Below, piece by piece: positions 919 to 58,250 of a stretch of 64,000 nucleotides of DNA. The stretch comes from an uncultured delta proteobacterium (GTDB lineage: Bacteria; Myxococcota_A; Polyangia; Polyangiales; B10-G4): the NCBI GenBank assembly GCA_963727445.1, contig CAVSGI010000009.1:512001-576000 (forward strand). Direction: 5' to 3'. A model generated the notes under the pieces. It was not told the origin of the DNA and did no database searches. It saw nothing but the letters and a program-made list of their open reading frames with translations. The position numbers were made by a program, and so were the translations under genes. Position 1 is the stretch's first letter; the number at the start of each line of letters is the position of its first letter.

Positions 919-1638
919 TCACCCACGCCGTGGGACTCGGGTTGCGGCGTTGATCGGCAGCTCGGTGATCAACGGATCGATACGATCCTCTGCGCCCCGA
1001 ATGCACATGCGCATGTAGAGCTCACCCGTCCGCACTTGCGGGTGCTCGCCGCTCCCCTCGAGCTCCAGGGACGCGGGATGATCCATGGCGTCAGCGGGCT
1101 GCTGCGCCGCTCCCGCGAGGAAGCGACGCCCGAGCTCGTCCGAGTCCGGTGGATCGTCCTGCTCGCGCGCATAGGGCTCCTCCATGGATGGTGCCCCGGC
1201 GAAGAACGCCGAGTACTCCGAACGGCCCGCCAGCTCCTCCGCTTCGGGGCCCTCGGCCCAGTCGAGGGCGAGGGGTGCCGAGTGATCCTCCCCGTCCACA
1301 CGCCGGCCGAGCTTCGGGCTCCAGGTGCGCTCGCTTTCGGGGGGGAGAACGACGAACTCCTCCATGTCGATCACCGATTGCATCTTGGCCCGTGCCCACC
1401 AGGCGGCGTAGGACGCGAAAGAAGCCGCAGTCGGGTCGAAATATTTCGCGGCGAGGATCACGCCGAGAAGTCCGGCCTGGATCAGGTCGGCGACCTCGAC
1501 GCCAGGACGTTCGAGCTGCTCGGCCATGGCCACGATCCAGGGGCGGTGGCTGAGGAGCGTCTCGTCCGAGGACCGGACAGAGAGCGACGTTCGAGCTGAA
1601 TCCTGCTCGGTCGTCGCGCCTCGGACGTGTTCCAACAT
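919..1638 (-). CDS. Sigma-70 region-2-containing protein with no recognisable region 4
   Basis: DLIQAGLLGVILAAKYFDPTAASFASYAAWWARAKM matches sigma-70 region 2; the C-terminus is acidic and has no region-4 HTH; start taken at ATG 1638 (MLEHV) within ORF 919..1941. Confidence 0.7.
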   Translation of the reverse strand: MLEHVRGATTEQDSARTSLSVRSSDETLLSHRPWIVAMAEQLERPGVEVADLIQAGLLGVILAAKYFDPTAASFASYAAWWARAKMQSVIDMEEFVVLPPESERTWSPKLGRRVDGEDHSAPLALDWAEGPEAEELAGRSEYSAFFAGAPSMEEPYAREQDDPPDSDELGRRFLAGAAQQPADAMDHPASLELEGSGEHPQVRTGELYMRMCIRGAEDRIDPLITELPINAATRVPRRG

Positions 1639-1822
1639 GGCATCGCCTCTCGTGGGTTCGCATGACCCGTAGGCTCCACGGACGTTCGCACAAGCCCCAT
1701 CGAGGGTCAGGTGCGCGGGGCGATCCGCCCCGATCGTGACGAAGCGCCACTGTCGGTCAGGCACGACGGGGCATCCGACACGTGTTGCGAAGTAGGTATG
1801 CAACTTGCGAGCGCCCGCCGTC

Positions 1823-2630
1823 ATGACCCACGATGAAACCGAACAACTCCTCACCAGGAAGAAAGAGCGCGAGCTCCTCGGGCGTGCTGCCACGGGCGAA
1901 CAATCGGCCGTCAGGCAGGTCATAGACGATACGACGCCCATGGTTCGCGCAATCGCCAGACGCCTCGCGCGCAGCGCCGACCAGTTCGACGACCTGCTGC
2001 ACGAGGGGATGCTCGGGGTGCTCCATGCCCTGACCCGCTTCGAATCCCAGTCGGGAGACGCGGTTCACGACCTACGCGCGCTACTGGGTCCGCTATTATG
2101 TACAGCGTGCCGCCCGGCGCAGCCGGCGCATCACCACCTTGCCGCGTACGCGAAAGATGGTGAAGGCGCGGCACGGGGTGCGGCGCGTGCGAAAGGCGCT
2201 CGAACAGGCCCAGGGTGGCCCCGTCGCGGCCGAGGACATCGCCGAGGCTCTCGGGGTGAGCGTCGACGACGTGATCCACGTCGAGCAAGAGCGTGTGGGC
2301 ACCGACATCTCCCTCGATGGCGCGTCGCAGGGCGATGGCGCACCCATGGAGATGCGAAGCTCGCGCATGAATCCCGAAGACCTGGCCATCGAGAGGGGCA
2401 TGCGACGCGAGCAGCGCCTCGTGGCCAATCGTTGCATGAACGTGCTGAACCCGCGCGAGCGCTTCATCGTCGAGGAGCACATCCTCGGGCAGGACCGGCG
2501 CACCCTTCGCGAGATCGGCGCGGACCTCGGGATCTCGAGAGAGCGCGTCCGGCAGCTCGAGCAGCGCGCCCTGACGCGCATGCGCGAAGAGATGAGCGGA
2601 GTCCCCGTCCGCGCCCTCCTCGCCTCCTGA
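1823..2630 (+). CDS. RNA polymerase sigma-70 factor, RpoH/SigB-SigC-like (one frameshift near 2050)
   Basis: DDLLHEGMLGVLHALTRF, then after the shift RFTTYARYWVRYY (region 2); region 4 RERFIVEEHIL..RTLREIGADLGISRERVRQLEQRAL; joins ORFs 1805.. and 2139..2630. Confidence 0.88.
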
Positions 2631-2658
2631 CGGGGACGGTCTACACTTTTCAACTTTC
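2631..2658. repeat. Solo copy of the 28-bp RAYT-associated end repeat CGGGGACGGTCTACACTTTTCAACTTTC
   Basis: Identical to the repeat at 54256-54283; begins directly after the TGA of the sigma gene, between convergent genes. Confidence 0.95.
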
Positions 2659-2673
2659 GCCCTTCCCTTCCCC

Positions 2674-3987
2674 TCACCTCGTCGCGATGAGCCGGTCGAC
2701 CGCCTTGCTCAACAGCGTCAGGTCTGCGGGCTTGACGAAGAAGTGATTGGCGCCGAGCCGGCTCAGCACCCGCCAATCGCTCGCGCTTCCGATCCCCGTG
2801 AGGACGATGATGCCGACGTTGGGGTTGGCGCTTCGGAGTGCCGCAGTGAGCTCGAGACCGTTCACGCCGGGCATCTCGAGGTCGGTGATGACCACGTCGG
2901 GCGGACGCGCCTGAATGGCTCTGAGGGCGGAGCGGCCGTCCGAAGCCGTCTCCACCACCACGCCCGGGATCTCCTGCGACAAGACGTCGGCGACGACCCG
3001 CCGCATCGCCTCGTCGTCATCCACGACGAGCACGCGGGTCTCGACCCGGCGTTCGGGGCACGCGCCGACCTGGAGCAGCTCGGTGACGAGCTCGCCGGCG
3101 GACGCGTGTCTGCACTCCGGTGCCTTGTCGAGGGAGCGCAAGAGCGGTCGATCGAAAGCGACGGAGACGTGCTCGGCGGTGGAGCTCGGCCGTGGCGCGG
3201 GCCGCTGGATGTGCGCCGCGAGGAGCTTCTCGGTTGGCTCGTCGGGCTCGAGTAGAAAGGGCAGGCGACCCGTGATCAACTCGAAGGCCAGTACCGCGAA
3301 GGAGTAGACGTCCTGCCGCCACATCAGCGAGTCGTGCAGTTGCAGGCCGGCCGCTCTCTCGGGGGGCATGTAGGCTGGCGTACCGCGAATCTCGTTGCGG
3401 CGTAGTCGCCCCAGAGTGTCGGTGAGGCCCATGTCGGAGAGGAGCACGCGTCCGGACTCGCTGAGCAGGACGTTTTCCGCTTTCACGTCGCCGTGGATGC
3501 GGCCCGACGCGTGGATCGCGTCGAGACCCCGAGCGACACACTCCAGAATCGACAGGCGTTCGTCGAGGGTCAGCTCGGGCTCGAGCGAGGCATAGAGCCG
3601 GCGCTCGAGGGTCATTCCCGGAACGAGCTCCATCGCGAAGTAGGGCGCCCCGTGGTGCCGGCCGAAGGAGTGGATGGCCACCACGTTCGGGTGTGCGAGA
3701 GCCGCCATGGCGCGTGCTTCTTCGAGAAAGGACTCCTCGCTTCCGGGCAGGCGCAGGAGCTCCGGGTGAAGCAGCTTCAACGCGACCTGGCGATCGAGCT
3801 TGGTGTCGCGAGCAGCGAGCACCACGCCCATGCCGCCGATCCCGAGAACGCTGCGCACTTCGAACTCGTCGATGCGCGTTCCAGAGTGGGGGATCACCGG
3901 GTTTGGGACACCCGAGAGGACGTTCGAGCGCCCTCGGCTCGTTTCTCGCTCTTCTTCGATGTCGGAAGCCAGAGACTGGGACGTCAT
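2674..3987 (-). CDS. Ser/Thr protein kinase fused to a C-terminal response-regulator receiver domain
   Basis: LGIGGMGVV, VALK, IHGDVKAEN, DMG, GTPAYMPPE; receiver VLVVDDD..DVVITDLEMPGVNG..LTG..KP; SD AAGGA before ATG 3987. Confidence 0.92.
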   Translation of the reverse strand: MTSQSLASDIEEERETSRGRSNVLSGVPNPVIPHSGTRIDEFEVRSVLGIGGMGVVLAARDTKLDRQVALKLLHPELLRLPGSEESFLEEARAMAALAHPNVVAIHSFGRHHGAPYFAMELVPGMTLERRLYASLEPELTLDERLSILECVARGLDAIHASGRIHGDVKAENVLLSESGRVLLSDMGLTDTLGRLRRNEIRGTPAYMPPERAAGLQLHDSLMWRQDVYSFAVLAFELITGRLPFLLEPDEPTEKLLAAHIQRPAPRPSSTAEHVSVAFDRPLLRSLDKAPECRHASAGELVTELLQVGACPERRVETRVLVVDDDEAMRRVVADVLSQEIPGVVVETASDGRSALRAIQARPPDVVITDLEMPGVNGLELTAALRSANPNVGIIVLTGIGSASDWRVLSRLGANHFFVKPADLTLLSKAVDRLIATR

Positions 3988-4019
3988 GTGGATCCTTTCG
4001 GCACGATGGCGTCTCAGGG

Positions 4020-4035
4020 TGCGAAGCACGTGCCA
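4020..4035 (-). promoter_or_regulatory. Putative sigma-54 (-24/-12) promoter for the kinase-receiver gene
   Basis: Minus strand reads TGGCAC-GTGCT-TCGCA with correct GG-N10-GC spacing, ~33 nt upstream of ATG 3987 and divergent from a sigma-54 activator. Confidence 0.65.
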
Positions 4036-4133
4036 CCGTCTCAGGTGACGCGCGCGCGCCCCGCCGTGGCAATTCGCCACGAGAGTGGCTTTGTGCCGCG
4101 GGACCGAGGCACGTCCTTGGTAGGCTCGGGCCG

Positions 4134-20537: not shown

Positions 20538-21059
20538 TCAAGGTGTGCAAGCCGTCTCGCAGTCGCCCCGACCCGTGGCGTTGGGGCACTCGGCGGCGGC
20601 ATCGGTCGCCGCTGCGGTGAGGTGCGTGGAGAGGCACGTCGTGCAGTCCATGCTGCCCATGTCGTAGAAGCTGAGGCAGGCCGCCTCGTCGTTGAAACGA
20701 GTCGGCATCATCGCGTAGCCGCAGGCGGCCTCGTAACCAGTGCAGAACGCCATGGCCGCTGCCGAGGCGCTGCCGCCGTCACCGCCGCCGCCGTCACCGC
20801 CGCCGCCGTCACCGCCGCCGCCGTCACCGCCGCCGCCGTCACCGCCGCCGCCGTCACCGCCGCCGTCACCCATCGTGCCGGTGTCACCGCCCGTACCGGT
20901 GTCCATGGTGCCGGTGTCGCCGGTGCCGGTGTCGCCGCCACCGCCGGTGTCGGCCGTGCCGGTATCACCCGTGCTGGTGTCGCCGCCGCCGCCATCGTCA
21001 CCGCAGCCCGTGCCCATGACGAGGGCCGCTGAGAGGAAGAGGAAAGAAAGTGCTCGCAT
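20538..21059 (-). CDS. Small lipoprotein with GDTG/GDGGG low-complexity linker and Cys-rich C-terminal domain
   Basis: MRALSFLFLSAALVMGTGC lipobox; SD GGAGG upstream; 15-bp GDGGG repeats at ~20772-20870. Confidence 0.8.
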   Translation of the reverse strand: MRALSFLFLSAALVMGTGCGDDGGGGDTSTGDTGTADTGGGGDTGTGDTGTMDTGTGGDTGTMGDGGGDGGGGDGGGGDGGGGDGGGGDGGGGDGGSASAAAMAFCTGYEAACGYAMMPTRFNDEAACLSFYDMGSMDCTTCLSTHLTAAATDAAAECPNATGRGDCETACTP

Positions 21060-23775: not shown

Positions 23776-24969
23776 TCAGCGGCCGACGATCGTCAGGTTT
23801 CCGCAGCGCGCGGTGCGGTTTCCGTCGCGGATTGTCACCGCGCCGCCGCTGCTGTTGCGGGGCACCTGGGCGCGGACCTGTCCGTCCCGCGCCTGCGACA
23901 CGGCCGCGATGTTGCCGCCGATCATGACGGTGGCGCCGCGACCGAAGCCGGTTCCGCTGAGCGTGATGTAGCCGCCGCGCGGTGCCCGCTCGGTGTTCGC
24001 CCGGCAGGTGAGGGCCACCGTGCCGGTGCTGCCCTGTCGGGTGCCGCCCGCGTTCACGGTGACGGTCCCGGGAGAGCCCGCGCGCACGCCGCCCGTCACG
24101 GTCGTGGTCGGCCGGTTGGTCGGTGTGGTGGGCGTGCGAACGGCGGTGCTCGGGCCGCGCGTCGCATCGGTCGGCGTCTGAACACGCACGCCGGTGCTCG
24201 GCTGCCGCACGGTCGGCGGGGTGTTGGTGCGCACGCCGCCGCGGACCGTGGCGTTGGCGGTGCCGGGGGTCGCGGTGGTGCGGGTTCCGCCCTGCACGGT
24301 GACGGTGGGCCGGGCGGTGCCGGGAGTCGCGGTGGTGCGGGTGCTGCCCTGCACGGTGACGGTGCGCCGTGCGGTGCCGGGGGTCGCGGTGGTGCGGGTG
24401 CCGCCCTGCACGGTGACGGTGCTCGACGGTCGACCCTGCACGCGGACCGTACCGGTGTCACCGCCCTGCACGGTGGCGGTGCCTTGCGTCGTGCCTCCGC
24501 CCTGCACGGTCACGGTCTGAGTGCCGCCGCCCTGCACCACGGTTCGAGCGGTGGCGGCGGGCTGCACGCTCACCCTCACGTTCCCCGGCTGCCGGTAGAC
24601 CGGCGCCGGCTCGGTGCTGCGCGGCCGCCAGTAACCCGGGTGGTAGTGGAATCCGCCGTCGACCTGCACGACTGCCGGCGCGGTCCACACGTAGCCCGGC
24701 CGGGGCGTCTCCCAGTGCCCGTCCACCCAGACCCAGCTTCCACGCCAGACGTAGTGGCCGCCGACCCACACCGCGTTCGCGTTGGGCTGAGGCGGACGCA
24801 CGCTCACCGCGGCGTGCACGGCCGGGGGCGGCGACTCCACCTTCACGTAGGCGGGGTCCTGGTAATAGACCGTCGAAGCAGTGGCCGGGCAGTCGTAGTA
24901 GTAGCAGCCGGAGAGCCCCGTCAGGAGCACGGCCGAGAGCAAGAGGGTGGGGGTGATCTTCGAAATCAT
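23776..24969 (-). CDS. YXWGXW-repeat lipoprotein with Thr/Val-rich linker and IPT/TIG-like domain
   Basis: MISKITPTLLLSAVLLTGLSGC; WVGGHYVW..WVDGHW..YVW..GYW; TVTVQGG repeats; ITLSGTGFG..ATVMIGG. Confidence 0.8.
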   Translation of the reverse strand: MISKITPTLLLSAVLLTGLSGCYYYDCPATASTVYYQDPAYVKVESPPPAVHAAVSVRPPQPNANAVWVGGHYVWRGSWVWVDGHWETPRPGYVWTAPAVVQVDGGFHYHPGYWRPRSTEPAPVYRQPGNVRVSVQPAATARTVVQGGGTQTVTVQGGGTTQGTATVQGGDTGTVRVQGRPSSTVTVQGGTRTTATPGTARRTVTVQGSTRTTATPGTARPTVTVQGGTRTTATPGTANATVRGGVRTNTPPTVRQPSTGVRVQTPTDATRGPSTAVRTPTTPTNRPTTTVTGGVRAGSPGTVTVNAGGTRQGSTGTVALTCRANTERAPRGGYITLSGTGFGRGATVMIGGNIAAVSQARDGQVRAQVPRNSSGGAVTIRDGNRTARCGNLTIVGR

Positions 24970-51238: not shown

Positions 51239-52291
51239 GTGGCGAGCGCTTCAGAGTCAGCGGCGGCAGGGGTCGGCGACGGGCCGGAGACGACCGCCGA
51301 CGTCGAGGTCATGGACGCGGAGCTCCTCTTGCGTCTCTCCGGGCCGAACAGCGCGCATCTGAGGACGCTCGAAGGTGCGCTCGGGGTGAGCCTGGGCCTT
51401 CGGGGTCACACCATTCTGGTGCAGGGGCAGACCGACGCCGTCGACCAGGCGGTGCGGGTGCTCCTCGAGCTGGTCGATGTGCTGGGGCGCGGGAAGAACA
51501 TGTCCGGTGTGGAGATGGCGCGCGCGGCGCGGACGCTCCAGCGCTATCCGGAAGTGAAGCTGCGCGACCTCTTCGACGACGTGGTCCTGGTGGCGTCGCA
51601 GAAGAAGGCCATCGCTCCGAAGGGCATCGCGCAGCAGATCTACATCCAGGCGATTCGCGACTTCGACGTGGTCTTCGGCATCGGGCCGGCGGGTACCGGC
51701 AAGACTTACCTGGCGATGGCCATGGCCGTGCGCGCGCTTCAGTCGAAGCTGGTCAAGCGGATCATCCTGACGCGGCCGGCGGTCGAGGCCGGCGAGAAGC
51801 TGGGGTTCTTGCCGGGTGATCTCGCGGAGAAGGTGAATCCGTATCTCCGGCCGCTCTACGATGCGCTCCACGACATGATGGACATCGACAAGGCGCAGGC
51901 GTTGCTCGCCCGCGGCACCATCGAAGTCGCGCCGCTGGCGTTCATGCGCGGCCGGACGCTCAACGACAGCTTCGTGATCCTGGACGAAGCGCAGAACACC
52001 ACGCCGGACCAGATGAAGATGTTCTTGACGCGCCTCGGCTTCGAGTCGAAGGCGGTGATCACCGGCGACGCGACGCAGACCGATCTACCCGAAGGGCGGC
52101 GCAGCGGGTTGGCCGACGCGGCGAATCTCCTCGGAAAGATAGAGGGGATCCGCGTCTGTCACTTCACCGACGCCGACGTGGTGCGGCACCCCCTCGTGCA
52201 ACGCATCGTCCGGGCGTACGATGGGCGCGACGCCAGGCGCGAGGCGCAGCGTCAGGCCGAGGAAGAGGAGAGCGGGGGAGACGAGACGTGA
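51239..52291 (+). CDS. phoH: PhoH family ATPase
   Basis: GPAGTGKTYLA, LTRPAVEAGEKLGFLPGDL, MRGRTL, LDEAQN, VVRHPLV; start is 51239 or 51311. Confidence 0.95.
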   Translation: MASASESAAAGVGDGPETTADVEVMDAELLLRLSGPNSAHLRTLEGALGVSLGLRGHTILVQGQTDAVDQAVRVLLELVDVLGRGKNMSGVEMARAARTLQRYPEVKLRDLFDDVVLVASQKKAIAPKGIAQQIYIQAIRDFDVVFGIGPAGTGKTYLAMAMAVRALQSKLVKRIILTRPAVEAGEKLGFLPGDLAEKVNPYLRPLYDALHDMMDIDKAQALLARGTIEVAPLAFMRGRTLNDSFVILDEAQNTTPDQMKMFLTRLGFESKAVITGDATQTDLPEGRRSGLADAANLLGKIEGIRVCHFTDADVVRHPLVQRIVRAYDGRDARREAQRQAEEEESGGDET

Positions 52292-54255
52292 GCAACTCGA
52301 CCACGACTCGAACGCCGGGGGCGACGTCCCCAGCGGGATTCATCGCGAAGCGGATCAAGGCCGATCCGCGTATCGATCGCGATGAGATGGACGTGGTGGT
52401 GGCTGGTCAGGTGGTCGAGATCACCAAACGAGATGCGCTCCTGGTGGCGGTGCCCACCATCAGTCTGGCGCACGACGCGCTCGAGCCTTACGCGGAGCGG
52501 ATCGCCGAGGGGCGAGCGGGGCTGATCCTGGTCGGCGTTCCCCCGACCGGGTTTCTCGAGACGCTGCCCGAGCGTGCGGTGGTGGCGTTGGTCGACGGGA
52601 CCTTCGGCGACGACGCGCTCTACCTGACCTTTCAGGGGATGCTCGAGCGGGTGGAGATGCGCCTCACGGACGACCGCCGGCGGCGCACCCTCGATCGCTA
52701 TCGGTACGAGCTGGGCGAGCTCGTCGAGATCGCGCGCGCCTTGAGCCAGGAGCGCGACACGTCGCGCCTGCTGAACCTGATCCTCGAGAAGAGCCGATTC
52801 ATCACCGGTGCGGATGCCGGGAGCATCTACGTCCTGGAAGGGGACGATCCGGACTTCATGAATCGGAAGCTGCATTTCAAGCTTTCGCAGAACGAGTCGT
52901 GTGAGTTCGAGTCGAGCGAGTTCACCATGCCCGTGTCGACCCGGTCCATCGCGGGCGCGGCGGCGGTGACGCGTTCGCCGATCAACATCCCGGACGTCTA
53001 TCGGATCCCCGAGGAGACCCCGTACGGGTTCGACAAGAGCTTCGACGAGAAGGTCGGCTACCACACCAAGTCGATGATCACGCTGCCGATGATCTCGGCG
53101 GAAGACGACGTCATCGGGGTGATTCAGCTCATCAACAAGAAGAAGCACCCCGAGAAGCGACTGGTCGAGAAGGCCGACTTCGATGCGGAGGTCGTGGAGT
53201 TCGGCGAGCGCGAAGAGGAGCTCCTGCAGACGCTCGCCTCGCAGGCGGGCATCGCGCTCGAAAACGCGCTCCTCTACGAGGAGATCAACCGCATCTTCGA
53301 GGGGTTCGTGCGCGCGAGCGTGCAGGCGATCGAGCAGCGCGATCCCACGACGAGTGGTCACTCGCTCCGGGTGAGCGTGCTGTCGTGCCGGCTGGCCGAG
53401 ATCGTGGATACGGTCGATGCCGGGCTCTACGCGGACACCAGCTTCACGCGGCGGCAGATCAAGGAGCTCGAGTACGCCTCGCTCCTGCACGATTTCGGGA
53501 AGATCGGCGTGCGCGAGAAGGTGCTGGTGAAGGCGAAGAAGCTCTATCCGCACGAGCTGGCGGCGGTGCGGGCGCGATTCGACTACCTGCTGAAGGCGGG
53601 CGAGGTCGAGATGCTGCAGACGAAGATGCAGCTCGTGGCGTCGGGCGCGTCGAAGGAGGAGCTCGAGGCCGCGGAGATGGCCTACGAAAAGAAGCGAGGC
53701 GAGCTGCAGGGCGCGTATCAACTGGTGCTTCAGGCGAACGAGCCGACGGTGATGTCGGAGGGCGACTTCACGGCGGTGGGTGCGCTCGCCGAGCGGACCT
53801 ACGTGGGGCCGGATGGATGCAGCCATCCACTTCTGCACGACAACGAGGTGAAGTCGCTTCAGGTGACGAAGGGGTCGCTGAACGATCAGGAGATCGAGGA
53901 GATTCGATCACACGTGACGCACACCTTCGACTTCTTGTCGCGGATCCCGTGGGGCAAGACGATGCGTTTCGTGCCGCAGATCGCCGGCGCCCACCACGAA
54001 AAGCTCAACGGCAGCGGCTACCCGCGCGGCGTCAAAGCGGACGCGATCCCGCTCCAGTCGAAGATCATGACCATCGCAGACATCTTCGACGCCCTCACCG
54101 CGCGCGACCGCCCCTACAAGAAGGCCATGCCCGTCGAGCGCGCCCTCGCCATCCTCGGCTACGAAGTCAAAGACAACCACATCGACGCCGAGCTCGTCCG
54201 CCTCTTCACCGAAGCCAAAGTCTTCGAAGCCGTCCAAGACGACCTCTCCTACTAA
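52288..54255 (+). CDS. GAF + HD-GYP cyclic dinucleotide phosphodiesterase
   Basis: GAF GVIQLINK; RDPTTSGHS, LLHDFGKIG, HHEKLNGSGYP, IADIFDALT..RPYK. Confidence 0.93.
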   Translation: MSNSTTTRTPGATSPAGFIAKRIKADPRIDRDEMDVVVAGQVVEITKRDALLVAVPTISLAHDALEPYAERIAEGRAGLILVGVPPTGFLETLPERAVVALVDGTFGDDALYLTFQGMLERVEMRLTDDRRRRTLDRYRYELGELVEIARALSQERDTSRLLNLILEKSRFITGADAGSIYVLEGDDPDFMNRKLHFKLSQNESCEFESSEFTMPVSTRSIAGAAAVTRSPINIPDVYRIPEETPYGFDKSFDEKVGYHTKSMITLPMISAEDDVIGVIQLINKKKHPEKRLVEKADFDAEVVEFGEREEELLQTLASQAGIALENALLYEEINRIFEGFVRASVQAIEQRDPTTSGHSLRVSVLSCRLAEIVDTVDAGLYADTSFTRRQIKELEYASLLHDFGKIGVREKVLVKAKKLYPHELAAVRARFDYLLKAGEVEMLQTKMQLVASGASKEELEAAEMAYEKKRGELQGAYQLVLQANEPTVMSEGDFTAVGALAERTYVGPDGCSHPLLHDNEVKSLQVTKGSLNDQEIEEIRSHVTHTFDFLSRIPWGKTMRFVPQIAGAHHEKLNGSGYPRGVKADAIPLQSKIMTIADIFDALTARDRPYKKAMPVERALAILGYEVKDNHIDAELVRLFTEAKVFEAVQDDLSY

Positions 54256-54525
54256 CGGGGACGGTCTACACTTTTCAACTTTCTCCGCCGGTTTCGCGCC
54301 CTGCGATCGCGATCCACCGGGGACGGTCTACACTTTTCAACTTTCTCCGCCGGTTTCGCGGTCGCTGACACCCCGCGATAGTGCGCTCATCACCATTTCG
54401 ACGTGCTTCAATGCCTGAGCGATCGATCCACCGGGGACGGTCTACACTTTTCAACTTTCTCCGCCGGTTTCGCGGTCGCTGACACCCCGCGATCCACCGG
54501 GGACGGTCTACACTTTTCAACTTTC
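54256..54525. repeat. Left repeat array: 4 copies separated by duplicated fragments of the transposase 3' end
   Basis: 54318-54423 is identical to 54498-54603; all internal copies are preceded by GATCCAC. Confidence 0.92.
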
Positions 54526-55552
54526 TCCGCCGGTTTCGCGGTCGCTGACACCCCGCGATAGTGCGCTCATCACCATTTCGACGTGCTTCAATGCCTGAGC
54601 GATGGCGGCTTCGTTCCGGTTGAGCAGCGCCGAAGCGGCTGAGTCGCTGATTCCCAAGTGCGTGGCCATTTCACTGGCGTTTCGATTCAGGCCACGCGAC
54701 CACACGATGACCGCAACGCGACGAGCCGTGGTCAGAGTGCGCAAGCGGCTTCTGGATCTCATTGCGGCTTCATCGACCCCGAGGACGCGAGCCACGACGT
54801 GAACCACCGTTGCACAATCCATGGGCTCAGAGTTGCGACTCGGCAGCGAGGGGGGAGCAACCACCGGCACACGCATGAGCTGACCGTGGTCGTCCAAGTC
54901 GAAAACGGGCGGCGCGACTTGCACCGGGCCACCGGATTCGTGGCGGGCCTCTCGTTGTAGCCGGGGGATTCTGTCTCCCGCTGAGGGCATCGTTTCGAGG
55001 CTCTTCGCGGTGTCGGTTTACGAATTCGTCGAACGACTTCCTGCCGGAGGCACGACTGCTGAACCCCGACAGCTCCAGCCCGAGTTCGATGTGGAGCCAC
55101 GAAGGGGCGCCGGTCGGCTCGAGGTAGAGCCGGTGGGAGGTCCAGCTCGACTCCCGCGCCAACCTCACCACTCCGGCCCGCGGGGGGTTGTTGCTGACGT
55201 AGGACACCAGATAGCCAACAGCGTCGGCGCCACAGATGATGGTCGTGGGACGGCCCGCGAACAGAGGCCCACGGCGTTCCTGGCGCTTGTTCATCCACGT
55301 CGCGAAGCCGCCGTTGAGCGCCTTCATGAAGCCCTCGAGATCGAGCGTGCCAGCCATGGCCACCAAGTGGATGTGATTGCTCATCACGCCATAAGCGATG
55401 ATGCGCCAATCGGTGCGTGCCATGACAATGCCGAGCCGCCGGAGGTATTCGCCGCGTTCTGCCGCGCAGGTGATGCGGAAGCCCCCGTCGACGAAGCGAC
55501 AGACGATGTGGACGATGGAGCCTGGAGGTAGGAGTCGAGGTTGCCTGGGCAC
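54517..55552 (-). CDS. REP-associated tyrosine transposase (RAYT/IS200-like Y1) with C-terminal DnaA-C-like HTH; one frameshift near 54978
   Basis: MPRQPR..IVHIVCR, YGVMSNHIHL (HUH), N...RRGPLFAGR, YVSNNP.RAG (catalytic Tyr); C-terminal VARVLGV..MRSRSR..ARRVAV..EMATHLGISDSAAS in ORF 54517..54990. Confidence 0.88.
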
Positions 55553-55598
55553 GACCCCTTGTCGGCTGGTGAGCGGCGAAGTTGCGGACCTGAGCGAC

Positions 55599-55772
55599 GA
55601 AAGTTGAAAAGTGCAGACCGTCCCCGGTGGCGTGTCCCCGGTGGCGTGGTGAGTGGCGAAAGTTGAAAAGTGTAGACCGTCCCCGGTGGCGCCGTCCCCG
55701 GTGGCGCCCGGTCCCCGGTGGCGCCCGGTGGCGTGGTGAGTGGCGAAAGTTGAAAAGTGTAGACCGTCCCCG
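55599..55772. repeat. Right repeat array: 3 inverted 28-bp copies plus GTCCCCGGTGGCG stutters
   Basis: GAAAGTTGAAAAGTGTAGACCGTCCCCG x3; 13-mer at 55620, 55634, 55679, 55694 and 55711. Confidence 0.92.
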
Positions 55773-57290
55773 TTAGCGCATGATGGCTACTAGGGTGGCG
55801 GTGATGATGGCGATGAGGATGCTGGCGCCGGCGACGGCCAGCCAGTTGACTTTGGATTGGGGGCGCGTGGGGGGGATGGCTGCTTGGGGGTAGGAGAGCT
55901 CGCTCCAGTTCGGGCGGTTCATTTCGACGGTCCGGGCGGTCTCGATCTTGTCTTCTCGGGCGGGAGGGGTGGTGCGTTTGTCGGTGGTGCCGATGGCGTC
56001 TTCGAGGGTGGTGCCGGCGTCGCCGCCCGGGGAACCGTCGACCTCCTCCGGTAGGATGAGCGGCTTGGTGGGGCTGGCCTCGAGGTCCTGCGGCGCCTCG
56101 CCGCGAAGCGCCGCCATCGCGCGGCTCGGCGGCGGGCGTCGCCCTCCATCACTCGTCGGGTTCGTGTCCCGCTCCGAGATCGACACCGGCTCGAGCGCTC
56201 CAGGTGGCGGCGTCAGATCCATCGCCGTCCGCCGCATCGTCCGCTCGCCCTCCATCGGCTCGCTCGACCCCAGCTCCTCACTCAGCTCCACCGACACCTG
56301 CGTCGGCGCCGACTGAATCTCGTCCACGTCGTCGTACGCTTCCCGCCGCCGTCCCGACTCGGACGGCTGCCGGTGCCTCCGGCTCCCCTGACCCAGCACC
56401 TCGTCGATCGCATCGTCCAGGGTCTCGAAGACCACGCCCCCCGCGAACGGCTCGAGCGCCAGTCCCAGGGTGCGAATCGACGGGTAGCGGTCGTCCGGAT
56501 TCGGCGCCATCGCCTTCAGCACCACCTCTTCGAGCTTCTCCGGCACGTCGATGTTGATCACCGTCGGCGGTCGCGGATCCGTGTTGGTGATCTTGAAGAA
56601 GAGGTCGGGTAGCGAATCTCCGTCGAAGGGCAACTCGCGCGTCAGCCCTTCGTAGAGCATCACCCCCACCGAGTACACGTCCGCCCGCTGGTCTACCGTG
56701 CTCGAATCGGCGATCTGCTCCGGCGCCATGTAGTACGGACTCCCGAGGAACGTCCCCGCGCCCGTCAGCTTTCCGGTGGCATCCGGATCGCGCAGCTTCG
56801 AGATCCCGAAGTCGAGCACCTTCGCCCCGCCGGCGCGCCCGCGCCTCGGCAGGCACAAGAAGATGTTGTCCGGCTTGAGGTCGCGATGCACCACACCACG
56901 TTCGTGCGCCGCGAACACACCGCGCAACGCCGGCATCAACGTCTGCACCAGATCCTTCGGGCTCGGCGCCCCGCGGTCGAGATACTCCCGGAGCGACTCC
57001 CCGCGTAGCAGCTCCAGCACGAGGTAGAGCGACTCCTCGTACCGCCCCGCGTCGTAGATCTCCACCACGTTCGGATGGTCCACCGCGTTCGCCGCCCGCG
57101 CCTCGCGCAGGAATCGCGACGCCACCGTCGGATTCTCCGCCAGCTGCGGGTAGAGCCACTTCAATGCGACCCGCTTGCCGATCAGCTCGTGAGTCGCTTC
57201 GAAGACGACTCCGGCCGCACCCTTGCCGAGCTGCCGCTCCAGTCGATACTTCTCGGCGATGACCTCTCCGGGCTCGGGGACATCACTCAC
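55773..57290 (-). CDS. Membrane Ser/Thr protein kinase
   Basis: LGKGAAGVVF, VALK, VHRDLKPDN, LDFGISK, GSPYYMAPE; C-terminal TM; start taken at GTG 57290. Confidence 0.92.
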   Translation of the reverse strand: MSDVPEPGEVIAEKYRLERQLGKGAAGVVFEATHELIGKRVALKWLYPQLAENPTVASRFLREARAANAVDHPNVVEIYDAGRYEESLYLVLELLRGESLREYLDRGAPSPKDLVQTLMPALRGVFAAHERGVVHRDLKPDNIFLCLPRRGRAGGAKVLDFGISKLRDPDATGKLTGAGTFLGSPYYMAPEQIADSSTVDQRADVYSVGVMLYEGLTRELPFDGDSLPDLFFKITNTDPRPPTVINIDVPEKLEEVVLKAMAPNPDDRYPSIRTLGLALEPFAGGVVFETLDDAIDEVLGQGSRRHRQPSESGRRREAYDDVDEIQSAPTQVSVELSEELGSSEPMEGERTMRRTAMDLTPPPGALEPVSISERDTNPTSDGGRRPPPSRAMAALRGEAPQDLEASPTKPLILPEEVDGSPGGDAGTTLEDAIGTTDKRTTPPAREDKIETARTVEMNRPNWSELSYPQAAIPPTRPQSKVNWLAVAGASILIAIITATLVAIMR

Positions 57291-57344
57291 GTCTAAAGAG
57301 TATCCCCAGCGATGCTCACCGAGAAGGGTGTATGGTTCCCCCGG

Positions 57345-58250
57345 ATGGACGACCGCATCCACGATGGCGTTCTCGATCTCGTCGGCCGAACCCCCCTGGT
57401 GCGCCTCTGCAAGCTCTCACCCGAGGGCGGCGCCGAGGTCTGCGCCAAGCTGGAGTCCGCAAATCCGGCTGGCAGCGTCAAAGACCGCCCGGCCCTCTCG
57501 ATGGTCCTGGCGGCCGAGGCCGCGGGCGAGCTCGCCGACGGCGCGACCATCGTCGAGGCCACCAGCGGCAACACCGGCATCAGTCTCGCCATGATCTCCG
57601 CCGTTCGCGGCTATCGTTGCATCCTCGTCATGCCCGAGGACATGAGCCTCGCCCGCCGCGAGATCCTCCGCCTCTATGGGGCTGAAGTGGTCTTGACCCC
57701 GGCCGAGGAGGGAATGGCGGGCGCCGTCGACCGCGCCGAGGAGATCCGCAGCGCCGAAGGCGCATGGATGACGCGCCAGTTCGAAAATCCAGCCAACCCC
57801 GAGATCCACGCGATCACCACCGCTGAAGAGATCTGGCGCGCGACCGGCGGTTCCCTCCACGCTTTCGTCGCGGGTGTCGGCACTGGCGGCACCCTCACCG
57901 GCGTCGGCCGCGTCCTCAAGGAGCGAAACCCCGACATTCGCATCTACGCCGTGGAGCCACGCGCGAGCGCCGTGCTTTCCGGAGGTAGGCCCGGACTGCA
58001 CGGGATCCAGGGCCTGGGGGCGGGCTTCGTCCCGGAAGTGCTCGACCGGGCGCTGATCGACGAGGTCCTGACCGTCACCGATCTGGCCGCGGAACGCTCC
58101 ATGCGTCGCCTCGCGCGCGAAGAAGGCCTCCTCGTGGGGCCCTCCGCGGGCGCCAACGTCCACGCTGCCATCGAGGTCGCCGACGCGCTCGAAAAGGGCC
58201 AGCGCGTCGTCACCATCCTGTGCGACACCGGCGAGCGCTACCTCTGCTGA
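57345..58250 (+). CDS. cysK: Cysteine synthase A
   Basis: KLESANPAGSVKDR, EATSGNTG, GVGTGGT, HGIQGLGAGF, DTGERY. Confidence 0.95.
   Translation: MDDRIHDGVLDLVGRTPLVRLCKLSPEGGAEVCAKLESANPAGSVKDRPALSMVLAAEAAGELADGATIVEATSGNTGISLAMISAVRGYRCILVMPEDMSLARREILRLYGAEVVLTPAEEGMAGAVDRAEEIRSAEGAWMTRQFENPANPEIHAITTAEEIWRATGGSLHAFVAGVGTGGTLTGVGRVLKERNPDIRIYAVEPRASAVLSGGRPGLHGIQGLGAGFVPEVLDRALIDEVLTVTDLAAERSMRRLAREEGLLVGPSAGANVHAAIEVADALEKGQRVVTILCDTGERYLC

What the first reader, a model, noticed from the sequence alone, without database searches (positions are those of the whole stretch)
2628..2676. Solo repeat 52 kb away; all three outer junctions abut a host stop codon
Seen: TGA|CGGGGACGG at 2630/2631 (sigma gene), TAA|CGGGGACGG at 54255/54256 (HD-GYP gene) and, on the minus strand, TAA|CGGGGACGG at 55773/55772 (kinase). 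Internal copies are preceded by CCAC instead. Both loci lie between convergent genes. The solo copy continues CTTTCGCC like the right-end copies. Inference: the repeat is mobilised in trans and either targets T(A/G)A, or element-driven deletions trim flanking DNA until stopped by selection at the stop codon.
Basis: partly seen in the sequence, partly recalled or inferred. Interest (0 to 1): 0.75.

Follow-up and report, generated by a model that had tools for sequence, protein, structure and literature searches.

The report
Transposase repeats creep up to stops
A short repeat belonging to a little-studied bacterial transposase sits right against the stop codons of many host genes, likely because repeated cutting at the repeat deletes neighbouring DNA until a gene blocks further loss, and the nearby genes carry a strand-specific shift in silent letters that is likely a scar of the same cutting.

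Summary
Confirmed, and genome-wide. The repeat is the terminal inverted repeat (TIR) of a TIRYT-type Y1 transposase: 177 copies at 56 loci. Of 92 outer junctions, 21 lie exactly one base after a called stop (random expectation 0.2%); 13 of those stops are TAA, which ends only 3% of genes here.

T(A/G)A targeting is not supported. Recent copies carry TAA/TGA in their own ~8-nt leader, and TIR-free copies of a repeat they entered have no TRA at the break. Trimming is supported: older loci keep a median 42 intergenic bases against 330 for young ones, promoter sides are also shorter, and 7 loci lost one side of the repeat they entered. An A/T-A/T-C preference before GGGG probably fixes the exact register.

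Near-stop pile-up recurs in six other genomes, but exact abutment does not. Flanking genes carry a strand-specific synonymous shift, which this scan already noted on this window (e1-8275535, e1-8275544); I found it in five of six other genomes. REPs supplying stop codons is in print. No empty site in a close relative was available, so "young" and "old" are inferred.

The parts
2139..2630 (+). 3' part of a sigma-70 gene (regions 3-4). Region 2 lies in another frame at 1805-2140, so the gene is split near 2100-2140 (real break or assembly indel).
2628..2630 (+). TGA stop of the sigma gene, one base before the GGGG of the solo repeat
2631..2657 (+). Solo TIR copy (C plus the 26-nt core, exact match to the commonest form); does not fold on its own
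2658..2673 (.). 16 nt of residual intergenic DNA; no partner TIR
2674..4080 (-). Convergent Ser/Thr kinase plus response-regulator gene; stop at 2674-2676
52288..54255 (+). GAF + HD-GYP-type gene. It ends at the same Tyr as 11 homologs, 10 of which use TGA; here TAA. Third codon positions: G in 1 of the last 30 codons, against 75 of 120 at codons -250 to -130.
54256..54524 (+). Left TIR array: copies at 54256, 54318, 54432, 54498, with duplicated inner flanks
54517..54990 (-). C-terminal part of the transposase with a DnaA-C-like HTH (E 1.1e-5, below the Pfam cut-off), in a different frame from the Y1 domain
54827..55552 (-). Y1 (HUH) transposase domain, Pfam Y1_Tnp above cut-off; frame break near residue 195 relative to an intact 334-aa homolog in G001
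55600..55772 (-). Right TIR array: full copies starting at 55626, 55685 and 55772, plus short flank+GGGGAC stubs (e.g. 55692-55700, 55709-55717)
55773..57362 (-). Convergent Ser/Thr kinase gene, TAA at 55775-55773. G at third position in 3 of the last 30 codons, against 80 of 120 at codons -250 to -130.
53400..57300 (.). Mirror-image two-zone G/C skew around the element: on the strand reading into the TIR, G-poor within about 250 nt and G-rich beyond

Best explanation
The repeat is the end repeat of a TIRYT-type Y1 transposase, and its outer edge likely reaches host stop codons after insertion, because inferred recurrent nicking at the repeat deletes or duplicates the adjacent DNA and selection would keep only the losses that spare a gene. 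Shown: (a) the pile-up at stops; (b) short flanks at loci with unique spacers and long flanks at loci that share a spacer; (c) two recurring breakpoints, just after GGGGA(C) and about 7-13 nt outside the GGGG; (d) an element-borne leader containing TAA or TGA in recent copies; (e) one-sided loss of a host repeat beside the element; (f) A/T at -2 and -3 even where no stop is involved; (g) the strand-specific synonymous shift. Inferred: that the Y1 protein makes the nicks; that shared-spacer loci are younger; that the A/T-A/T-C preference makes stop-N-GGGG the tightest tolerated overlap, which would admit TAA best, TGA less and TAG not at all; that TAA arises both from fusion to the leader's TAA and from local G loss; and that the synonymous shift comes from single-strand exposure and re-synthesis around the nick.
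For: Pile-up: 21 of 92 junctions at d=1, against 2, 2, 3 and 1 at d=0, 2, 3 and 4; null 0.0017. At old loci 18 of 21 TRA flanks are gene stops, against 10.8% expected if any non-coding TRA were a target. Young versus old: d=1 in 3 of 38 versus 18 of 54 (Fisher p 0.005); within -20..30 nt in 7 of 38 versus 36 of 54 (p 6e-6); residual intergenic DNA at paired loci, median 330 (n 19) versus 42.5 (n 18), p 3e-4. Promoter-facing sides are shorter too, median 72 (n 14) versus 273 (n 12), p 0.0013 (lists, test), which a stop-codon target would not predict. Twelve of 19 young loci and 0 of 37 others lie in pieces of another long repeat. In 7 of the 12 it survives on one side only, and in 6 of those 7 the bare side is 7-92 nt from a stop. 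Homology to TIR-free copies ends 5-12 nt before GGGG at the closest junctions. Breakpoints after GGGGA(C) at 14 locus sides in 12 loci; duplicated flank of 7-13 nt in 48 of 69 events; the same stubs occur in G005 (10 loci), G078 (4) and G031 (2). Overshoot: 3 ORFs run into the TIR and end at a TAC-to-TAA/TAG variant inside it; in the second family 10 of 44 junctions end at TIR-internal stops. Old junctions not at d=1: A/T at -2 in 32 of 36, at -3 in 26 of 36, G at -2 in 0 of 36. Synonymous shift: negative at 46 of 47 old junctions; follows the TIR strand in sense and antisense genes alike; control gene ends within about 0.04.
Against: No filled/empty pair from close strains: the nearest genome has 78% nucleotide identity and lacks this TIR. 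'Young' rests on a shared spacer. Within that group, spacer identity did not correlate with residual flank (rho 0.18, p 0.44) or with the distal shift (two loci were also oriented wrongly in that listing). The young group may simply prefer long, hairpin-rich spacers. The one-sided losses could have happened during insertion, not afterwards; two of the seven rest on matches of about 30 nt, and the host repeat varies in length. Exact d=1 is particular to this family: 0-1 cases in each of six other genomes. The short-range G loss is absent in 4 of those 6 and the long-range G gain is absent in G031, although all six pile up near stops, so the shift is not required for trimming. The cognate gene in this window has a frame break. 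No biochemistry of a TIRYT was found in the papers read.
Confidence: 0.66

Rival explanations
1. Insertion is directed to hairpins or gene ends and replaces the target DNA in one step, as described for IS1272, so the short flanks arise at insertion and not by later erosion.
For: Twelve of 19 young loci lie in a long, partly palindromic repeat. Two-sided cases show both loss and duplication of target, best-match gaps -64, +10, +66, +37 and -51 nt. An inverted-repeat-replacing mode without target duplication is reported for IS1272 (PMC5678879, abstract).
Against: It does not explain why unique-spacer loci are tighter on promoter-facing sides as well, the stacks of flank+GGGGAC stubs that need repeated events at one site, or the stronger synonymous shift at those loci.
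Confidence: 0.16
2. The element recognises T(A/G)A and inserts one base after it, so stop codons are hit as ordinary targets.
For: 46 of 92 outer junctions have TAA or TGA at -4..-2, and no TAG occurs at d=1.
Against: The TRA of young copies lies in the leader, and the aligned TIR-free targets show none at the break. Only 3 of 36 old non-d=1 junctions have TRA. Only 10.8% of such targets should be stops, against 18 of 21 seen. Related families show no TRA consensus.
Confidence: 0.05
3. Insertion is unbiased, and selection at the RNA level (termination or 3' protection) retains the copies just behind stops; ordinary bacterial deletion bias does the rest, with no role for the transposase after insertion.
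For: REPs generally lie within 20 bp of convergent 3' ends and are proposed to act as RNA elements (PMC3733652 section 15). Paired TIRs could form an RNA hairpin.
Against: A solo TIR does not fold (z 0.16, -0.75 and 1.36), yet 4 of 11 single-copy loci are at d=1. Breakpoints fall at fixed TIR positions. The synonymous shift follows the TIR strand and not transcription.
Confidence: 0.1
4. Assembly or gene-calling artefact.
For: Frame breaks in the sigma and transposase genes suggest indel errors in this assembly. Gene ends are my own calls.
Against: The HD-GYP stop position is confirmed by 11 homologs. A second, skew-blind caller again gives 21 junctions at d=1 (of 95). The shift falls mainly on third codon positions and recurs in other genomes. 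Contigs of run X1 hold the same TIR with similar spacers.
Confidence: 0.03

Closest known systems
TIRtrons / TIRYT (Di Nocera, De Gregorio, Rocco 2013, PMC3733652; passages and section 15 read) = TnpA-Y1 subclass 2.1 (Quentin et al. 2018, PMC6006769; abstract and passages read)
   Same: Y1 gene with a DnaA-C-like HTH tail, flanked by GGGG-starting inverted repeats that also occur genome-wide as singles, dimers and clusters.
   Different: The motif is GGGGACGG, one base off GGGGWSAS. The passages read give no target, breakpoint, flank-erosion or flank-mutation data for TIRs; a search of PMC6006769 for 'stop codon' found no occurrence.
REP/REPIN-RAYT systems (PMC3733652; bioRxiv 10.1101/2021.07.10.451892, PMC8266576 and PMC5581495, passages read)
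   Same: Doublets with a variable spacer. REPs lie within 20 bp of convergent 3' ends, and GTAG termini often supply the TAG stop. [quoted passage not shown]
   Different: No hairpin and no GTAG here. The stop lies outside the conserved core and is TAA/TGA. E. coli TnpA-REP cuts at CT, whereas the breakpoints inferred here are after GGGGA(C) and 7-13 nt outside.
TA-targeting bacterial MITEs such as RUP (PMC2229807, passages read)
   Same: Short non-autonomous inverted-repeat elements in intergenic DNA.
   Different: Those use an IS630-type transposase and a TA target. Here there is no fixed target duplication and the partner is a HUH/Y1 protein.
IS1272 inverted-repeat-replacing transposition (PMC5678879, abstract read)
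   Same: Insertion into palindromic targets without a fixed duplication; tandem duplications of an end.
   Different: A different element, reported as a single replacement step. No flank mutation footprint is mentioned in the abstract.
Meiotic break hotspots (PMC7615360, abstract and passages read); a functional analogy only
   Same: Recurrent sequence-directed cuts leave strand-asymmetric substitutions over 1-2 kb, plus short deletions and duplications.
   Different: Eukaryotic SPO11 double-strand breaks with unrelated proteins. Here only standing base composition was measured, not new mutations.

Membership tests
TIRYT / TnpA-Y1 subclass 2.1 | Y1 core with HUH and catalytic Tyr | tested here: met
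   Pfam Y1_Tnp 26.4 bits against a cut-off of 23. HIH and Y-x-x-N-N-P are visible in the translation; the motif labels are recalled.
TIRYT / TnpA-Y1 subclass 2.1 | C-terminal HTH (Bac_DnaA_C type) on the same protein | tested here: inconclusive
   Bac_DnaA_C E 1.1e-5 but below cut-off, and in a second frame. The G001 homolog joins both parts in one 334-aa ORF.
TIRYT / TnpA-Y1 subclass 2.1 | Gene flanked by terminal inverted repeats instead of REP hairpins | tested here: met
   Four copies left and three right, inverted; no stable fold. Similar GGGG-starting TIRs flank 20 of 29 homolog loci.
TIRYT / TnpA-Y1 subclass 2.1 | GGGGWSAS motif (found in most, not all, described TIRs) | tested here: inconclusive
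   GGGGACGG matches 7 of 8 positions.
TIRYT / TnpA-Y1 subclass 2.1 | TIR repeated genome-wide as singles, dimers, groups | tested here: met
   177 copies at 56 loci.
TIRYT / TnpA-Y1 subclass 2.1 | Placement in subclass 2.1 by phylogeny or the authors' profiles | not tested
   No tree with reference members was built.
Classical REP/RAYT (groups 2.2, 2.5) | Palindromic REP with GTAG at its foot | tested here: not met
   No GTAG in the 26-nt core; fold z-scores 0.16, -0.75 and 1.36.
Classical REP/RAYT (groups 2.2, 2.5) | Cleavage and strand transfer at CT by the cognate protein | not testable with these tools
   Needs biochemistry.
TA-targeting MITEs / fixed-target IS200-IS605 elements | Fixed target or target duplication, precise insertion | tested here: not met
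   Five two-sided insertions in a host repeat show best-match gaps of -64, +10, +66, +37 and -51 nt and no common target. The mapping is blurred by the target's internal symmetry.

The most novel reading that the evidence does not exclude
TIRYT end repeats are standing, sequence-programmed nick hotspots in bacterial chromosomes. Each copy keeps cutting its own flank for as long as it stays: it eats intergenic DNA up to the nearest essential signal, hands its own stop codon to host genes, and rewrites the silent sites of neighbouring genes on one strand out to about 5 kb. The spectrum is set by the host's repair machinery: two-zone in G000 and G005, short-range only in G031, long-range only in G189, G111 and G057. 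This would explain why REP-like repeats hug gene ends without needing an RNA function.
Probability: 0.45. Interest if true: 0.8.

Novelty: new variant of a known kind. Interest (0 to 1): 0.6.

Why it matters
Why REP-type repeats crowd gene 3' ends, and what their vertically kept transposases do once the repeats are in place, are open questions. The usual reading is an RNA function. These data point to a DNA-level ratchet (cut, lose flank, stop at the gene) and give testable cut positions for a transposase class for which I found no biochemistry (one 'TIRYT' search, 2 papers listed). If the flank shift is mutational, a selfish repeat acts as a local, strand-specific mutator of host genes, which bears on codon-usage and skew analyses.

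Tried and rejected
(1) Empty site in relatives. The TIR was found in 0 of 40 related genomes, and no syntenic sigma/kinase pair in 5 genomes. Run X1 (share 0.05) held only short contigs, none bridging 2631. No RNA holder listed. (2) search for related loci on genome contigs gave no confirmed relative. (3) Replichore skew as cause of the flank shift: rejected. Plus and minus genes differ by a few hundredths in 100-kb bins, and both sides of a locus mirror each other. (4) Gene-end or convergent-gene effect: rejected, with 5342 gene ends, 2292 convergent ends and 146 TAA genes far from TIRs all within about 0.04. (5) G-to-A bias alone as the source of TAA: insufficient. Lys/Glu/Gln A-ending rises from 0.19 to about 0.45, which by my logit scaling predicts about 12% TAA; 11 of 18 were seen (p 1e-6). 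(6) Age gradient within the young group: not significant. (7) Three smaller GGGGAC families (F3-F5, 4-12 junctions per motif) were too small or too far from genes to judge. (8) Hairpin in the solo TIR: none. (9) Rfam on three other Y1 loci: no match. (10) Two further TIR genomes (G192, G067) were located but their flanks were not analysed. Rows left out: one tail-to-tail locus has no outer junction; two 6-mismatch hits were dropped; three overlapping windows were dropped. In other genomes only part of the listed loci was fetched (40 regions of G111 holding 95 of 165 counted copies; 20 regions each of G078, G031, G005, G189, G057). Literature searches that found no description of TIR flank erosion or flank skew. 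Supplements were not read and the library lacks most subscription papers.

Full report
1. Observation. The three junctions, the CCAC before inner copies, the convergent gene pairs and the CTTTCGCC continuation are all in the sequence as stated. The solo copy occupies 2631-2657 and leaves 16 nt before the stop of the opposing kinase/response-regulator gene. The repeat is not local: a 26-nt core occurs 177 times at 56 loci in the 9.47-Mb genome. The 52-kb distance and the shared continuation (46 of 177 copies) therefore carry little information.

2. Identity. The arrays at 54256-54524 and 55600-55772 bracket a Y1 transposase domain and, in a second frame, a DnaA-C-like HTH. A same-genus homolog joins both in 334 aa. 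This matches TIRYT/TIRtrons (PMC3733652, passages and section 15) and subclass 2.1 (PMC6006769, abstract and passages). Twenty of 29 homolog loci have their own GGGG-starting TIRs. The genome holds four Y1 genes, one with a second TIR family of 68 copies.

3. I called genes with a codon model (7682 genes; among 5973 strong calls TGA 4815, TAG 975, TAA 183) and measured the distance d from each outer GGGG back to the nearest stop. Of 92 junctions, 21 are at d=1, with 2, 2, 3 and 1 at d=0, 2, 3 and 4. The null is 0.0017. The 21 stops are 13 TAA, 8 TGA and no TAG. A second caller blind to G/C at third positions again gave 21, of 95. The refutation criterion is not met: the enrichment is real. For the HD-GYP gene, 11 homologs end at the same tyrosine and 10 of them with TGA, so the window's TAA is at the host's own stop position with a different middle letter.

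4. Target or trimming. Nineteen loci share a 41-46 nt spacer; I treat them as young, which is an inference. Their junctions have TRA in 25 of 38 cases but only 3 are stops. At the other loci, 21 of 54 have TRA and 18 of these are stops, against 10.8% expected for a TRA target. Twelve young loci, and none of the 37 others, lie in pieces of another long repeat whose TIR-free copies serve as internal empty sites. Homology to them ends 5-12 nt before GGGG at the closest junctions, the aligned targets show no TRA at the break, and the five two-sided cases show gains or losses of tens of bases. The TAA/TGA of young copies thus travels with the element. In seven loci the host repeat survives on one side only; in six of these the bare side lies 7-92 nt from a stop. 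Two of the seven rest on matches of about 30 nt, and loss at the time of insertion cannot be excluded. Residual intergenic DNA has a median of 330 nt at young and 42.5 nt at old paired loci. Promoter-facing sides are also shorter at old loci, 72 versus 273 nt. Against this reading, no gradient appears within the young group, and no close strain was available.

5. Breakpoints. Many loci carry short duplications of flank plus GGGGA(C). The jump-off falls at TIR position 5-6 at 14 locus sides in 12 loci, and the duplicated flank is 7-13 nt in 48 of 69 events. The same stubs occur in G005, G078 and G031 but not in G189, G057 or G111. I infer two cut or strand-transfer positions, one inside the TIR and one about 10 nt outside. 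The outer one would explain how a moving copy takes a short leader with it, including a stop if the donor abutted one. By established HUH chemistry the cut leaves a 5'-phosphotyrosine and a free 3'-OH (PMC8266576, passages). That this protein makes these cuts is untested.

6. Why one base, and why TAA. At the 36 old junctions not at d=1, position -1 is C in 24, -2 is A/T in 32 and never G, and -3 is A/T in 26. A stop overlapping this A/T-A/T-C fits as TAA-N best, TGA-N less, and TAG-N not at all. Local G loss adds to it but alone predicts only about 12% TAA. Where the repeat offers its own stop, ORFs run into it: three here through TAC-to-TAA/TAG variants, and 10 of 44 in the second family. 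In six other genomes of the order, 15 of 36, 27 of 57, 20 of 38, 20 of 44, 37 of 95 and 20 of 49 junctions lie within 30 nt of a stop or inside the ORF (null in G000 4.2%). Each family has its own register (-1, 0, -15, -16, -18), and d=1 occurs at most once per genome. Only part of each genome's loci was fetched.

7. Flank shift. On the strand reading into the TIR, fourfold-degenerate sites are C 0.79 / G 0.14 in the last 100 nt (control 0.51 / 0.36), cross baseline near 300 nt and are G-rich out to about 5 kb. The shift follows the TIR strand in sense and antisense genes. It is negative at 46 of 47 old junctions, weaker at young ones, mild at codon positions 1-2 and absent from control gene ends. 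With bootstrap intervals: G000 -0.26 near and +0.08 far; G005 -0.35 and +0.06; G031 -0.20 and none; G189 +0.10 to +0.14; G111 up to +0.10; G057 up to +0.06; G078 about +0.03 and marginal. So there are two separable components that differ by lineage. I measured this before looking at earlier notes; the scan had already reported it on this window (e1-8275535, e1-8275544). Those notes are not independent support. The single-strand-exposure explanation is inference, by analogy with break-associated asymmetry at meiotic hotspots (PMC7615360, abstract and passages).

8. Comparison with what is known. REPs lying within 20 bp of convergent 3' ends, and supplying stop codons, are described (PMC3733652 section 15). 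Local effects on mutation rate are listed as a proposed REP function (10.1101/2021.07.10.451892, passages). I did not find erosion to the stop, the leader, the breakpoints or the flank shift described for TIRs (supplements not read). Other papers seen: PMC2229807, PMC5581495 and 10.1101/2024.07.17.603846 (passages) and PMC5678879 (abstract). Word searches of the scan's notes for stop-codon erosion returned nothing; several notes file similar repeats in other genomes as TIRYT ends.

9. Verdict. A real feature of a known but barely studied element class. Novelty: new variant of a known kind. Interest 0.6. The boldest reading, standing nick hotspots that erode and recode their surroundings, has probability 0.45 and would merit 0.8.

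Noticed in passing
G000:C10:487559-488613 (L004) and 22 other loci: A second TIR family (68 copies, 23 loci) with its own intact-looking TIRYT. Ten of 44 host ORFs run into its internal stops; the flank shift is weaker (-0.13 near, +0.03 far).
   Followed up: yes
G000:C20:404400-405050; also C21 ~302500, C27 ~176200, C15 ~110200 and ~225700, C10 ~11600: A 300-650 nt GC-rich, partly palindromic intergenic repeat with no Y1 gene seen beside it. It is the preferred landing place of the young TIR doublets (12 of 19 loci). Its own mobiliser is unknown.
   Followed up: partly
G000:C21:302560-302592: A TIR-free copy of that repeat has about 30 foreign bases at the insertion hot spot, including a GGCTAAC like the element's leader; possibly an excision scar.
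   Followed up: no
G000:C21:405643-407849: Two TIR groups face inward around about 2.1 kb with no Y1 hit listed there; both outer ends abut TAA stops. Possible cargo or replaced transposase.
   Followed up: no
G000 unidirectional loci: The TIR-bearing strand is also G-poor for about 100 nt on the 3' side (-0.20, only 111 sites), so the short-range shift may be centred on the TIR and not one-sided.
   Followed up: partly
G000:C8:197390 minus side: Atypical junction: at d=1 with the young leader, but strongly G-rich throughout (+0.18, +0.39, +0.37), with no short-range reversal.
   Followed up: no
G111 loci (L065-L104): This family carries a conserved leader of about 14 nt outside GGGG, and its junction distances start at about 14-17 nt, consistent with erosion to the leader's edge.
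   Followed up: partly
window 1805-2630 and 54517-55552: Both the sigma gene and the transposase are split by a frame change; assembly indels are possible.
   Followed up: partly
window 919-1941 (-): A divergent second sigma-70 region-2 ORF sits head to head with the sigma gene.
   Followed up: no
G000, nine loci such as C9:580614-581068: A separate palindromic GGGGAC-core repeat family (23 copies) and a further small family resembling the G002 TIR; cognate Y1 genes not assigned (L001 and L002 are candidates).
   Followed up: partly
window 20776-20859 and 24057-24419: Short tandem periodicities (15 nt; 57 nt) seen in the motif search, probably coding repeats.
   Followed up: no
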